A model generated the notes under the pieces. That model was not told the DNA's origin, did not search any database, and saw only the letters and a program-made list of their open reading frames with translations. From a virus (lineage: Duplodnaviria > Caudoviricetes), in the IMG/VR virus record IMGVR_UViG_3300029825_000035, positions 1-31,363 of that record: a stretch of 31,363 nt of DNA. One strand, written 5' to 3'. Below, in pieces: positions 21-16,914 of the stretch. Position numbers and translations under genes: made by a program. The number at the start of each line of letters is the position of its first letter. Position 1 is the stretch's first letter.

Positions 21-272
21 TTATCGCCTTACACCACCGGGGGATACTTCCACGTTCAAACACCCATCCACACAAGATGCAAAGCAATACGCCGTTTTAT
101 CCTCTCCGCTCGACCAATCAACACCAACAAATGCATTTGGCTTTAGATTATCGACGAACTTCTCTGCTTCTTTCCTTGTTCCAAACGCGTATCCCGTTTG
201 TTCCCAATGGTTGTTCCACCTCATGATTTCGTAAACACCAATCGAGTAATTGTATCTCACTTTATATTCCAT
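21..272 (-). CDS. hypothetical phage protein
   Basis: ORF 21..293; AGGAGG RBS upstream of the ATG at 272 (MEYKVRY...) suggests this start; overlaps the end of the HNH gene. Confidence 0.65.
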   Translation of the reverse strand: MEYKVRYNYSIGVYEIMRWNNHWEQTGYAFGTRKEAEKFVDNLKPNAFVGVDWSSGEDKTAYCFASCVDGCLNVEVSPGGVRR

Positions 273-657
273 GTTGTTTGTCCTCCTGTTCATCTATGAT
301 CCTTTGCACATCCACATACGGTATCGCACCACTCTCGCACATCTCGTGATGCACAGAGCAAACCAACAACAGGTTATCGTTGTCCAGTCTCTTGTCATAG
401 TCCACGTCCAACGGCACGGCATGATGCACTGAGCAGTTATCATACGTCAGTCTCGACACAGTGCCAGGTAGATTGCGCATGCAACACTGACACAGGTTCA
501 TGTCTCGTTGTCTGATCTCTTCCCGCTTCCTCTTCCATGCCGTCGTGTTACGGAACTTATCAGGCGTGCGCCCCTTGATCTTCTGATACACTGGCTTACG
601 TCCGCAGTCGTACTTACTATCATGCACACGCCCACAGTATTTACACGACCTCAGCAT
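262..657 (-). CDS. HNH endonuclease (packaging-associated type)
   Basis: CKYCG..H N-terminus, W...R..I..RD..LCQCC, SVHHAVP, LDNDNL..VCSVHH; typical position before terminase; start probably ATG 657 (MLRSC), ORF extends to 720. Confidence 0.9.
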   Translation of the reverse strand: MLRSCKYCGRVHDSKYDCGRKPVYQKIKGRTPDKFRNTTAWKRKREEIRQRDMNLCQCCMRNLPGTVSRLTYDNCSVHHAVPLDVDYDKRLDNDNLLLVCSVHHEMCESGAIPYVDVQRIIDEQEDKQHGI

Positions 658-910
658 TGTCAGTTCTGTAATGCTCCGTCTCTTCTCCCACGGTTGATAG
701 CATGACGCAGTGATCACCACTCATGAACGGGAACGAACGCTTGTCTACCTTCACTCTCTTTGCGTGTAGATTCATTACAGTCTGGCACGCAATGCAGCGT
801 CGTCCTACATTACCAAACCTACCATCGTTACCCACACACTTGCTCTCAATGCCAACTGACATATCATCATCGTACTCTTTGAGCACTTCCTTCAACTCAC
901 CTACTGTCAT
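641..910 (-). CDS. hypothetical phage protein
   Basis: 89 aa, MTVGELKEVLKEYDDDM..V N-terminus common in small phage proteins; AAGGAGG RBS. Confidence 0.75.
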   Translation of the reverse strand: MTVGELKEVLKEYDDDMSVGIESKCVGNDGRFGNVGRRCIACQTVMNLHAKRVKVDKRSFPFMSGDHCVMLSTVGEETEHYRTDNAEVV

Positions 911-979
911 TGCCCATCCTCCTTCATGTACAACACGACCGCATGAACATCTACATCCACGCGGTCGTCATGTTATATT

Positions 980-1070
980 CCCTGTCTCTTCCAGAGTTGT
1001 CACCGAACTACTGCTGCACTACTGAGTAATGCAGCCCCTTTGCAATCGTCACCGTCCGAAAACGGCAGGG
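980..1070 (-). ncRNA. putative structured non-coding RNA
   Basis: Hairpins CCGTT-TTCG-GACGG, CTGCATTA/TAGTGCAG and CTCTG-GAAGAGA-CAGGG; CCCTG..CAGGG could alternatively close the whole element. Confidence 0.45.
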
Positions 1071-1078
1071 TCTATTCA

Positions 1079-1152
1079 TGGAGCCAACGGAGTCGGTATG
1101 TCCAACTCTACCATGCCTTTACGGATTTCTAGTCCGTCAGGATCACGTCAGC
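1079..1152 (-). ncRNA. tRNA-like RNA lacking a D arm, anticodon-like AGA (Ser)
   Basis: 7-bp acceptor GCTGACG/CGTTGGC followed by T-CCA; anticodon arm ACGGA-CTAGAAA-TCCGT; hairpin GAGTTGG-ACATA-CCGACTC in the T-arm position. Confidence 0.55.
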
Positions 1153-1156
1153 ATAT

Positions 1157-1219
1157 ATAGCAACCAGAATTGCACTGGCGACGCGGTAAGAGTCGCGCTG
1201 CCTCTTTTACGCTTGAGGC
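1157..1219 (-). pseudogene. degenerate tRNA-like remnant, possibly tRNA-Lys(CTT)
   Basis: CGCGA-CTCTTA-C-CGCG resembles a Lys(CTT) anticodon arm; GCCAG-TGCAATT-CTGGT resembles a T arm; acceptor stem not intact. Confidence 0.35.
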
Positions 1220-1259
1220 ATATATAAAATAAAAAGGAGACATATGAAAAACAATCTAT

Positions 1260-1330
1260 TGGTGCCGGTGAACGGTATCGAACCGATGACATCCTGTATT
1301 ACCAGTGCTCTACCCCTGATCTACACCAGC
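1260..1330 (-). tRNA. pseudo-tRNA-Thr(GGT), 5' strand of anticodon stem missing
   Basis: GCTGGTG/CACCGGC acceptor plus ACCA; TAGATCAG..GGTAGAGCA D region; GGTTCGATACC T arm; loop CTGGTAA followed by TACAG with no 5' partner; 71 nt. Confidence 0.75.
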
Positions 1331-1339
1331 GTATTATAA

Positions 1340-1648
1340 CTACGGATCATCATTTAACGTTCCGCATCTTTTTGAAACATTCATGTAATGTTCGATTTTT
1401 TCAATTTTCTTTCCTAAATCTAAACCGCTTAAGTTCTGGTCGCATTCGATATGGCCCTCTCTTGCAAGCATAACTTCAGTCGCCCTTAAATCTTTCAACT
1501 CCTGTTTCAGATCGTAAGAGTTTGTCGTGCGCATAGGATCATCCGGATTGTATCCATCAAAACCAAATCGCAAGCACTTTGAAGCGGCCTGTTGAACTTC
1601 TGCTGCTTCCTCCATCAGGTGAATAAGTAGGTACTCAGTTTTGTTCAT
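1340..1648 (-). CDS. MazG-like nucleotide pyrophosphohydrolase
   Basis: LMEEAAEVQQAASKCLRFG ... LKQELKDL acidic helical motif; AAGGAGG RBS before ATG 1648. Confidence 0.7.
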   Translation of the reverse strand: MNKTEYLLIHLMEEAAEVQQAASKCLRFGFDGYNPDDPMRTTNSYDLKQELKDLRATEVMLAREGHIECDQNLSGLDLGKKIEKIEHYMNVSKRCGTLNDDP

Positions 1649-1809
1649 ATTTTCCTCCTTGCGATTCTTCAATTTCAGTAAATAGTATCATCTTACTTAT
1701 ATTTGCGGGCGACGGAGTATGGAATCGCGCCGCCCGCTTGAAAGGAGGCAAACAAAAAAGAGAGGTATAGACAGCAAGGGGGTCTTCCCCTCACCTTTCT
1801 ACAGCTTAT

Positions 1810-1838
1810 ACTATATCACAGATCAGTATAAACTTCTA
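1810..1838 (-). promoter_or_regulatory. putative activator-dependent late promoter (extended -10 TGA-TATAGT, weak -35)
   Basis: TGnTATAGT at 1810-1818 with TAGAAG 17 bp upstream of the -10; lies just downstream of the ArpU/RinA-like gene, where such promoters usually sit. Confidence 0.5.
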
Positions 1839-1999
1839 TCAACTGTTTCCATTTTTTCTAAATATTCTGAATATTTTTCATCGTCCAATTCATGGTATGG
1901 GCATTCTTCCCACTTACACTCATAAAATTTTCCTAGTCGATCCGTGCAATACTTACACCCTCGCTTGTTTATTTCGTCCAACGTCAATCTTCTGCTCAT
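1823..1999 (-). CDS. small Cys-rich hypothetical protein
   Basis: CKYC...CKWEECPY; ATG 1999 overlaps the upstream stop (ATGA). Confidence 0.65.
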   Translation of the reverse strand: MSRRLTLDEINKRGCKYCTDRLGKFYECKWEECPYHELDDEKYSEYLEKMETVDRSLY

Positions 2000-2451
2000 A
2001 CTCCAGCACCGCACTCAACTCCATCACGCTCAACTATCTCACGCTCTTTTAAAAGCTTGTCCACTTCCAAGAGCGCCTTGCCATGTAATTTACAAACCCA
2101 CTGATAAGTATAGCCCATACCTACTGCAATCTGCTCCCATGTCTCATAGCAGAAGTACCTCCGATATAGTACATCACACAATGCACCATTTATTCCATCA
2201 ATTATTTTCATCGCTTCATCTTTCAAATCCACAAGCCTGTCAATCTGCTCATTGATCTCTTCTTGCAGCTCAACAATTTTGCAGACAATTGTCCCCACTT
2301 TGTCGCTGTCTCCACCGCCACTCACTACATCGTCTTTCAACACGCTTGTCACTGATAATATCAGTTCTTTCAGACTCTGCACTTCTTGCAATTTATTCCG
2401 AATCAGGGTGTCGCATTTCCGAATCTGGCTCAAATAGCTTTTCGCTGTCAA
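1996..2451 (-). CDS. ArpU/RinA-like (DUF1492-like) late transcriptional activator
   Basis: MTAKSYLSQI N-terminus; C-terminal VLYRRY...TWEQIAVGMGYT....KLHGKAL sigma-region-4-like HTH; AAAGGAGG RBS with TTG start. Confidence 0.85.
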   Translation of the reverse strand: MTAKSYLSQIRKCDTLIRNKLQEVQSLKELILSVTSVLKDDVVSGGGDSDKVGTIVCKIVELQEEINEQIDRLVDLKDEAMKIIDGINGALCDVLYRRYFCYETWEQIAVGMGYTYQWVCKLHGKALLEVDKLLKEREIVERDGVECGAGV

Positions 2452-11828: not shown

Positions 11829-12009
11829 CTGTCTCCACCTTTCTCAGTTCCGCTTCGTATTCCTCAAGCACCCCAAGTTCTCTTGCTTTTTCTCTGAGCC
11901 ATGCAAAATAAAATTCGTCCAGACCATTGTCAACAATCACTTCTGCAAGCTTTGGGTCATCTGTTTCAAAGAAGTTTTCAAACAATCTTTTTACAAAGCC
12001 TAGTTCCAT
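11794..12009 (-). CDS. hypothetical protein
   Basis: 71-aa ORF; GAGG RBS; TAATG coupling to the FNT gene. Confidence 0.65.
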   Translation of the reverse strand: MELGFVKRLFENFFETDDPKLAEVIVDNGLDEFYFAWLREKARELGVLEEYEAELRKVETDGQAGIVPEDV

Positions 12010-12806
12010 TATTTCCTCACTTTCTTTGCAATGGCGTTGTAAGGAATTTCAACGAACACTATTGCCCCAATCGTATTCCCTATGGTAACCAATAGCAAGT
12101 TCCACAAATAGCCTGTTAGCGTGATTTTAAACCCGCATGGGTTAAGCAGCGCCACCCCAATAATGCTCATATTGGCAACCGAATGCTCAAACCCGCAAAT
12201 CATGAAAATCAGAATGCACCAGAAAACCATGATCAGTTTCGCAGCTTCATTTTGCAATCTCACACTGCACCAGACCGCAAGGCATACGCAAATGTTACAC
12301 AAAATTCCTCTGGTAATAAGTTGCAATGCAGATAAGTGAATTTTCACGTTTGCAGCATTCGCAAAATACTGAGCAATTGGAATATTTTGGGTTATGCCAG
12401 TTCCTTGAAAAATAAGTACCAGAATCCATGAGCCAATCAAATTTCCGATCCAGCATAGAGCCAACATTGCAAACGTGCTTTCGATCCTCATGTATGATTT
12501 TGGAACGTACTCGCGTTTCGACTTGAAATAGAACGAAAGTACCATTGCATTTCCGGTGAACAATTCGCACCCTGCACCTATGACCAGACTGAGCGCAGCA
12601 GCAAACACAAAGGAAACTAGGAATTTAGCATTTGTGGAACCGGCAGCAGTAGCAAGACCACCAATTGACATTGACGCAAAGCTTCCAAGTGAAATAAACA
12701 TACCTGCAAGCATGGAAGAAATGAGATAACCGAATCTATTCTGATAGAACAAAATTCTTTTGCGCTCTCCAGACAGGCACACGGCTATGCAATCTTCTTT
12801 AAACAT
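12009..12806 (-). CDS. formate/nitrite transporter (FNT) family channel
   Basis: SMLAGMFISLG, G.ELFTGN, WIGNLIG, RGILCNICVCLAVW, F.ICGFEHSVANM, NLLLVTIGNTIG; about six TM helices; start ATG 12806 or TTG 12815. Confidence 0.95.
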   Translation of the reverse strand: MFKEDCIAVCLSGERKRILFYQNRFGYLISSMLAGMFISLGSFASMSIGGLATAAGSTNAKFLVSFVFAAALSLVIGAGCELFTGNAMVLSFYFKSKREYVPKSYMRIESTFAMLALCWIGNLIGSWILVLIFQGTGITQNIPIAQYFANAANVKIHLSALQLITRGILCNICVCLAVWCSVRLQNEAAKLIMVFWCILIFMICGFEHSVANMSIIGVALLNPCGFKITLTGYLWNLLLVTIGNTIGAIVFVEIPYNAIAKKVRK

Positions 12807-12834
12807 TGCCGCCAACCTTTTTGTAAGTTAACAT

Positions 12835-16785: not shown

Positions 16786-16914
16786 GTATACAAATCTGCG
16801 GGGTTTGGTATACAAATCTGCGGGGTTTGGTATACAAAAGTGCGGGGTTTGGTATACAAATCTGCGGGGTTTGGTATACAAAAGTGCGGGGTTTGGTATA
16901 CAAATCTGCGGGGT
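16786..16914. repeat. 22-bp tandem repeat, about 5.9 copies (iteron-like)
   Basis: GTATACAAA(TC/AG)TGCGGGGTTTG starting at 16786, 16808, 16830, 16852, 16874, 16896. Confidence 0.97.

What the first reader, a model, noticed from the sequence alone, without database searches (positions are those of the whole stretch)
1079..1152. D-arm-less, CCA-ended tRNA-like RNA with an AGA anticodon
Seen: the minus strand reads GCTGACG-TGATCCTG-ACGGA CTAGAAA TCCGT-AAAGGCATGGTA-GAGTTGG ACATA CCGACTC-CGTTGGC-T-CCA (74 nt). It has a 7-bp acceptor stem (two G-U pairs), discriminator plus encoded CCA, and a perfect anticodon arm with canonical C32 U33 ... A37 A38. An 8-nt linker replaces the D arm, and a 7-bp/5-nt hairpin replaces the TpsiC arm. 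Known: D-arm-less tRNA-Ser is characteristic of metazoan mitochondria, and A34 anticodons other than Arg(ACG) are rare in bacteria. Inference: all three stems pair, so this looks maintained rather than randomly decayed. It could be a tRNA mimic (decoy for anticodon nucleases or synthetases) that tRNA scanners would miss.
Basis: partly seen in the sequence, partly recalled or inferred. Interest (0 to 1): 0.78.

Follow-up and report, generated by a model that had tools for sequence, protein, structure and literature searches.

The report
D-armless tRNA mimic in phage leader
A bacterial virus carries a 74-base tRNA-shaped sequence that keeps the anticodon arm and CCA end but lacks the D arm and T loop, lies in a noncoding block shared with a related virus, and likely acts as a non-translating tRNA look-alike rather than a working tRNA.

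Summary
In detail: three stems, an AGA anticodon loop and an encoded CCA at 1079-1152 (minus strand). A permissive descriptor finds it once in the window and never in 300 shuffles; ARAGORN and Rfam miss it. It is not alone. It is the third of three irregular tRNA-like units upstream of an HNH gene of a Clostridia-type siphophage, a site where relatives often carry tRNAs, including arm-deleted and A34 ones. One diverged relative keeps 999-1262 at about 96% while flanks and the upstream tRNA differ; its changes spare the stems, the anticodon arm is unchanged and the 5-nt 'T' loop is rewritten. Conservation and the only two-sided compensatory change extend 80 nt past the CCA, so the unit under selection may be about 220 nt. 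It fails tRNA tests (14-bp acceptor/T branch, no T loop, no variable-arm helix), so Ser decoding is unlikely. Best reading: a tRNA-derived, likely non-translating mimic or decoy (0.38); rivals are pseudogene decay (0.3) and a domain of a larger leader RNA (0.25). Evidence is thin: three partial relatives, no family, no expression data.

The parts
1079..1152 (-). Element C: D-armless, T-loop-less, CCA-ended tRNA-like unit (the finding)
1146..1152 (-). Acceptor 5' strand (G1, C2), followed by U8 G9; pairs with 1083-1089
   Evidence: nearest acceptors are Leu and Thr, 4 of 17 letters different
1121..1137 (-). Anticodon arm, AGA; unchanged in X9/X11/X16 as far as listed; predicted 3-bp extension 1141-1139 with 1116-1118
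   Evidence: 2 letters from Phe, Cys, Tyr and Leu arms
1090..1108 (-). 7-bp hairpin in the T-arm position; inner 5 bp look like a T stem; 5-nt loop has no T-loop consensus and is rewritten in X11
1079..1089 (-). Acceptor 3' strand, U73 and encoded CCA
   Evidence: sequence
1153..1222 (-). Element B: three hairpins (6 bp; 5 bp with an 8-nt loop holding a CUU triplet; 5-bp T arm with a 7-nt T-like loop), no convincing acceptor stem, no CCA
   Evidence: one T-loop change in X11
999..1078 (-). Element D: structured 3' flank; hairpin 1066-1051 with UUCG loop and one compensatory pair in X11; 10-bp hairpin 1035-1013
1260..1330 (-). Element A: tRNA-Thr-derived gene with CCA, intact D and T arms, anticodon arm about 4-5 nt short; replaced by another tRNA in X11
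   Evidence: Rfam tRNA 32.3 bits; best match Thr(UGU) among 336 tRNAs; loose end
999..1262 (-). Noncoding block kept in the diverged relative X11 (9 other letters, 9 gap letters)
1810..1818 (-). Extended -10-like motif after the regulator gene; candidate late promoter (read by eye, not called by the promoter scan)
   Evidence: sequence; similar motifs after related regulator genes; one search found no minus-strand promoter
1996..2451 (-). Phage transcriptional regulator (ArpU/RinA-like; that name is recalled)
   Evidence: phrog_36, E 1.1e-22
1340..1672 (-). NTP pyrophosphohydrolase-like gene just upstream of the cluster
   Evidence: phrog_4856, E 9.6e-20
641..910 (-). Small hypothetical phage gene downstream of the block
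262..720 (-). HNH endonuclease gene
   Evidence: phrog_144, E 3.7e-16

Best explanation
The element is a tRNA-shaped unit with acceptor stem, anticodon arm and CCA but no D arm or T loop, set in a noncoding block shared with a related phage, and it likely works as a non-translating tRNA mimic. Inferred steps: it arose from a class II or Cys-like tRNA gene; it is transcribed with the late leader between the regulator and HNH genes; it is trimmed to, or folds as, a CCA-ended domain; lacking the 12-bp branch and the elbow it is not delivered to the ribosome; its intact anticodon arm and acceptor end bind a host tRNA-recognising protein, most likely an anticodon nuclease of a defence system, and so spare real tRNAs.
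For: Shape beyond chance. Stems match canonical tRNA cores: the anticodon-stem plus T-stem pattern returned 113 distinct non-window rows, nearly all ordinary Tyr, Leu, Cys or Ser tRNAs by eye. Site is a tRNA hotspot: 32 of 160 related HNH loci carry ARAGORN tRNAs; 26 acceptor/T-arm units on the sense strand, 0 on the antisense, 0.05 per shuffled set. Relative X11 keeps the block at 9 changes in about 255 nt against 10 in 93 next door (Fisher p 0.014), with a different upstream tRNA and a 322-nt replacement downstream; listed changes spare the three stems and leave the anticodon arm untouched, while the 5-nt loop is rewritten. Phage tRNAs are known to counter tRNA-cutting defences through the anticodon stem-loop (PMC11464382, passages).
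Against: Only three partial relatives, two of them short contigs of depth 3-4.5. Four compatible events have chance probability 0.22. No two-sided compensatory change inside the 74 nt; the only one is in element D, past the CCA. X16 has a change at 1117 that breaks the predicted stem extension. The acceptor stem is only 0.30 probable when 999-1222 is folded. Phage mosaicism can give high local identity without selection. Neighbour A is visibly broken. The known case is an uncleavable working tRNA, not a decoy. No partner protein is identified.
Confidence: 0.38

Rival explanations
1. A decaying tRNA cluster: A, B and C are tRNA pseudogenes at a common phage tRNA site, each broken differently, and the identity with relatives reflects recent exchange of the cassette.
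For: A lacks part of its anticodon arm, B lacks an acceptor stem, C lacks D arm and T loop. Truncated and weak tRNA-like sequences are common at this site. No homologue in 166 HNH or regulator loci or in the genome samples.
Against: Random decay should leave mismatches, yet all 19 pairs of C are Watson-Crick or G-U; the T-like stem is 2 bp longer than a T stem; lower divergence than the neighbouring gene (p 0.014) and a compensatory pair in D.
Confidence: 0.3
2. C is one domain of a roughly 220-nt structured RNA (B+C+D) acting in the late leader, for example in processing or read-through of the late transcript, or as a stand-alone RNA; the CCA is internal or only a cut site.
For: Conservation covers B, C and D in X11 (999-1262), X9 (1001-1177) and X16 (1079-1229). 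The compensatory pair 1064/1053 lies in D. A 6-bp helix 1182-1177 with 1004-999 (probability 0.52 in the 999-1222 fold) ends where X11's match ends.
Against: That helix vanishes in wider windows (0.00-0.01); the block folds only at z -1.37; it does not explain the canonical anticodon loop and NCCA; no Rfam family matches.
Confidence: 0.25
3. A working D-armless tRNA that reads UCU/UCN codons, like metazoan mitochondrial tRNA-Ser.
For: Canonical anticodon loop, U8, 7-bp acceptor, CCA; relaxed ARAGORN mitochondrial mode calls a Ser(aga) over part of it, as 1 of 8 mostly noisy calls. UCU is 77 of 354 Ser codons in 13 late ORFs.
Against: 14-bp acceptor/T branch against the 12 bp read by EF-Tu (PMC5389517, passages); no T loop; no variable-arm helix for SerRS (recalled); U73, whereas 7 of 7 Ser tRNAs with CCA in my set have G73; -mtmam finds nothing.
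Confidence: 0.05

Closest known systems
Metazoan mitochondrial D-armless tRNA-Ser (group 4 of PMC4394434; passages)
   Same: No D arm, 5-12-nt connector (8 here), 5-bp anticodon stem with 7-nt loop, Ser-type anticodon
   Different: T-position stem 7 bp (4-5 there), loop 5 nt (6-7 there), longer 3' connector, phage setting with bacterial machinery
Allo-tRNAs and polycistrons of irregular tRNAs (Mukai et al., PMC5389517; passages)
   Same: Tandem irregular tRNA-like sequences, odd anticodons, found in Clostridia and phages, some probably non-translating
   Different: Those keep a 12-bp branch (8/4, 9/3), a D stem-loop and a long variable arm; this has 7+7 bp, no D arm, no T loop
Phage tRNAs that neutralise tRNA-cutting defences, e.g. 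T5 tRNA-Lys against PARIS (PMC11464382; passages)
   Same: Phage-borne, anticodon stem-loop is the likely point of contact
   Different: Those are complete tRNAs that resist cutting and replace the host tRNA; this could only be a decoy; untested
Canonical tRNA (Rfam RF00005), Tyr/Leu/Cys/Phe/Thr isotypes
   Same: Anticodon arm within 2 letters, acceptor within 4 of 17, T-stem-like core
   Different: No Rfam or ARAGORN call; mixed isotype signals, so the parent cannot be named

Membership tests
canonical bacterial tRNA | 7-bp acceptor stem, discriminator, CCA | tested here: met
canonical bacterial tRNA | 5-bp anticodon stem with 7-nt loop, U33 and purine 37 | tested here: met
canonical bacterial tRNA | D arm with G18 G19 | tested here: not met
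   8-nt connector
canonical bacterial tRNA | 5-bp T stem with 7-nt T loop; 12-bp acceptor branch | tested here: not met
   7 bp, 5-nt variable loop, 14-bp branch
canonical bacterial tRNA | Score over RF00005 or ARAGORN cut-off | tested here: not met
canonical bacterial tRNA | Processing, aminoacylation, EF-Tu delivery | not testable with these tools
   needs RNA data and biochemistry
mitochondrial D-armless tRNA-Ser | No D arm, connector 5-12 nt | tested here: met
   8 nt
mitochondrial D-armless tRNA-Ser | T stem 4-5 bp with 6-7-nt loop | tested here: not met
   7 bp and 5 nt; ARAGORN -mtmam 0 genes
allo-tRNA (8/4, 9/3) | 12-bp branch, D stem-loop and long variable arm | tested here: not met
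bacterial tRNA-Ser | Long variable-arm helix and G73 (identity rules recalled) | tested here: not met
   12-nt linker without own helix, U73
Rfam structured RNAs (ribozymes, tmRNA, GOLLD and others) | Covariance-model match | tested here: not met
   no credible hit to E 10 over 960-1260 or 600-2000
anti-defence phage tRNA or decoy | Rescues phage from a tRNA-cutting defence | not testable with these tools
   host and defence system unknown

The most novel reading that the evidence does not exclude
Clostridial phages keep a set of arm-deleted tRNA mimics in their late leader; this one is a D-armless, elbow-less, CCA-ended RNA made during infection that soaks up anticodon nucleases or synthetases, the bacterial-world counterpart of armless mitochondrial tRNAs but used as a decoy, and invisible to standard tRNA scanners.
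Probability: 0.22. Interest if true: 0.8.

Novelty: new variant of a known kind. Interest (0 to 1): 0.5.

Why it matters
Phage tRNA counts rest on ARAGORN-type scanners, which miss this unit and its neighbours. If it is made and bound by a host protein, it would show that phages fight tRNA-cutting defences with stripped-down decoys as well as with resistant tRNAs, and it would tell which tRNA parts such nucleases need. The survey also shows that the site upstream of this HNH family holds several other irregular tRNA-like RNAs that no Rfam family covers. If it is a pseudogene it is an ordinary relic.

Tried and rejected
Homologue searches that found nothing: exact patterns in viral contigs (0; 35 loci: 9 loci, none homologous: 122 loci from 14 of 64 parts of the collection, ordinary tRNAs); metagenome pattern (1 locus, L006, 100% identical over 1401 nt, so not independent); blastn of the block against phages (0) and plasmids (3 hits at E 3); blastn in genomes (0 of 5, 0 of 401, 0 of 401; with a 9-kb query gave 9 of 399, none in the block); one-sequence covariance models of C (only itself in 86 sources, one E 1.2 hit in 80 loci, 0 of 150 and 0 of 1 genomes), of D and of B (0 in 100 of the 160 HNH loci); nhmmer and blastn on 160 loci. 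One-sequence models are weak and the host is unknown, so these are 'not found in those searched'. Expression: no RNA holder listed; runs labelled RNA are flagged as probably DNA and are contigs. Considered by eye and dropped: permuted two-piece tmRNA or tRNA-Ala (a G-rich strand at 1038-1032 could pair with 1080-1086 with a G3-U70-like pair, but it is locked in a 10-bp hairpin at probability 0.99 and there is no T arm); HDV-like/theta and hammerhead ribozymes (core motifs recalled, not present; no Rfam hit); a protein-coding explanation (only 20-49-aa ORFs overlap; not searched for homologues). Earlier scan notes: 4 look-ups, nothing. PMC13015707 (passages) gave nothing on pseudo-tRNAs or decoys.

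Full report
Observation. Its MFE fold has the three stems named, at -23.5 kcal/mol, z -2.26, 2 of 200 shuffles as stable. All 19 pairs of the three stems are Watson-Crick or G-U. A permissive descriptor for acceptor stem, anticodon arm, stacked hairpin and NCCA finds this element only, and nothing in 300 dinucleotide shuffles of the 31-kb window; the descriptor was written after seeing the element. ARAGORN, Rfam to E 10 and Rfam at gathering scores do not call it. Folding adds a 3-bp extension of the anticodon stem built from both linkers, and shows that the acceptor stem is the context-dependent part (probability 0.98 alone, 0.30-0.79 in four larger windows).

Setting. The window is the whole record, a siphophage fragment with primase, DNA polymerase, tape measure and endolysin genes. 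Relatives of its HNH gene lie mostly in Clostridia genomes; the host itself is unknown. On the minus strand the order is: transcriptional regulator (1996-2451), a -10-like motif read by eye at 1810-1818 (the promoter scan called none on this strand), an NTP pyrophosphohydrolase gene, a 430-nt noncoding gap, a small gene and the HNH gene. That the gap lies in the late leader is inference from gene order.

The finding is one of four structured units in that gap. A (1260-1330) is a tRNA-Thr derivative with CCA and a shortened anticodon arm (Rfam 32.3 bits; best match Thr(UGU) among 336 tRNAs). B (1153-1222) has three hairpins, the last a proper T arm, but no acceptor stem or CCA. C is the finding. 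D (999-1078) holds a UUCG hairpin and a 10-bp hairpin.

Ancestry. A pattern made of C's anticodon stem and the inner five pairs of its last hairpin returned 113 distinct rows besides the window, nearly all ordinary Tyr, Leu, Cys or Ser tRNAs with D arms and T loops, judged by eye (only 14 of 64 parts of the collection were scanned). C's anticodon arm is two letters from Phe, Cys, Tyr and Leu arms; its acceptor ends are nearest to Leu and Thr (4 of 17 letters, 305 tRNAs); G1-C72, C2-G71 with U73 occurs in 12 of 12 Gly and 6 of 11 Thr tRNAs. So C is very probably tRNA-derived, but the parent cannot be named and 'Ser' rests on the triplet alone.

The site is a tRNA hotspot. 32 of 160 loci with a related HNH gene carry ARAGORN tRNAs. 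In the 1.6 kb upstream of HNH there are 26 acceptor/T-arm units on the sense strand, 0 on the antisense and 0.05 per shuffled set, among them anticodon-armless units (L094, L095, L135) and units with a 4-bp T stem (L062, L067, L081). Ser(ACU) tRNAs with A34 occur in L096, L098 and L099, although A34 other than Arg is rare in bacteria and phages (PMC8007984, passages). None of these is a homologue of C.

Conservation. Six runs from three studies hold the stretch almost unchanged and L006 is identical; these add no variation. Of 4 small-share runs laid, 3 cover the element. X11 (depth 25) matches 999-1262 with 9 other letters and 9 gap letters, against 10 other letters in 93 nt of the neighbouring gene region (Fisher p 0.014); beyond 1262 it carries a different tRNA 3' end, and 927-999 is replaced by 322 other letters. 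Its listed changes: in C one G-U to A-U pair (1094) and a rewritten 5-nt loop (1097-1101); in B one T-loop letter (1168); in D a two-sided compensatory pair (1064/1053) and two loop letters; a 7-nt deletion in the linker at 1222. X16 (157 nt, depth 4.5; 2 of its 4 other letters listed) turns an acceptor A-U into G-U (1148) and changes 1117, which breaks the predicted stem extension. X9 covers 1001-1177 with one unlisted change. The anticodon arm shows no listed change. For C alone, four compatible events would arise by chance with probability 0.22, so this is suggestive, not proof; the D hairpin was picked after seeing the variants, though it lies 0.1 kcal/mol from the local optimum. Recent exchange between phages could also give this identity.

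How it most likely works. Shown: shape, tRNA-like stems, position, conservation in one good relative. Inferred: transcription, processing and target. A translating role is unlikely: EF-Tu reads a 12-bp acceptor/T branch (PMC5389517, passages) and this one is 14 bp, with no T loop, and no variable-arm helix or G73 for SerRS (rules recalled; 7 of 7 Ser tRNAs have G73). What is kept is what tRNA-recognising proteins touch at the two ends, the anticodon arm and the acceptor-CCA end, while the loop that would form the elbow varies freely. I therefore favour a non-translating mimic, most likely a decoy for an anticodon nuclease (0.38). The precedent is indirect: T5 tRNA-Lys beats PARIS as an uncleavable working tRNA (PMC11464382, passages). 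Rivals are pseudogene decay (0.3), a domain of a 220-nt leader RNA (0.25) and a working D-armless tRNA (0.05).

Comparison with known kinds. It works, if at all, like the irregular, probably non-translating tRNAs of Mukai et al., but is not an allo-tRNA. It resembles mitochondrial D-armless tRNA-Ser in outline but fails the T-arm sizes given in PMC4394434 (passages). Five literature searches listed no paper that by title or abstract start describes a D-armless tRNA-like RNA of a phage; the library lacks most subscription papers. Fremin et al. (PMC10690425; passages) report tRNA-like candidates in phages; three motifs of C were absent from 6 supplementary files searched, but 3 files, two of them very large, were not searched and could hold it.

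Verdict. A real, scanner-invisible, tRNA-derived structure in an unusual form, with thin but consistent signs of selection, no known family and no evidence yet of expression or function. New variant of a known kind; interest 0.5.

Noticed in passing
L062:2224-2312, L081:2711-2799 (also L067; 3' part in L045): An irregular tRNA-like unit upstream of HNH with a 7-8-bp acceptor, 4-bp T stem, true T loop and a conserved internal motif; stems differ between the two copies but still pair; no Rfam hit at E 0.05. Candidate new family.
   Followed up: partly
L060:2793-2894, L064:2793-2894, L081:2822-2923: A second irregular tRNA-like unit: acceptor, 5-bp hairpin with 7-nt loop, hairpin with 3-5-nt loop, T arm; many differences between L060 and L081 keep the pairing; no Rfam hit.
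   Followed up: partly
L094:1225-1293, L095, L135:1843-1911: tRNAs with perfect acceptor, D and T arms but no anticodon arm, of two unrelated sequences; the mirror case of the finding.
   Followed up: partly
L096, L098, L099 near 1745-1833; L136 near 717-818: tRNA-Ser(ACU) genes with A34, and an irregular tRNA-like unit with AAU triplet and long anticodon stem, at the same pre-HNH site.
   Followed up: no
window 1115-1106 (-): A D-loop-like motif (UGGUAGA) sits in the 3' linker of C rather than before the anticodon arm; could hint at a rearranged tRNA or be chance.
   Followed up: no
window 1232-1339 (+): A strong ribosome-binding-site-like motif and ATG open a 31-aa frame antisense to tRNA A; a similar start occurs in another X11 contig with a different continuation.
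   Followed up: no
window 865-925 region in run X9: The loose end before 865 reads like the start of the HNH gene, suggesting a relative lacking most of the small gene 641-910 (compared by eye).
   Followed up: no
window 16786-16914: Tandem repeat of 22 bp, 5.9 copies, 92% matches, in the gap between endolysin and the early genes; could be operator or iteron sites.
   Followed up: no
window 12009-12815 (-): A 268-aa hydrophobic protein among replication genes; PHROG of unknown function; looks like a formate/nitrite channel by recall, not tested.
   Followed up: no
window 1263-1330: Element A scores 32.3 bits (cut-off 29) in the permissive Rfam scan but is lost in the whole-window gathering scan and by default ARAGORN.
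   Followed up: yes
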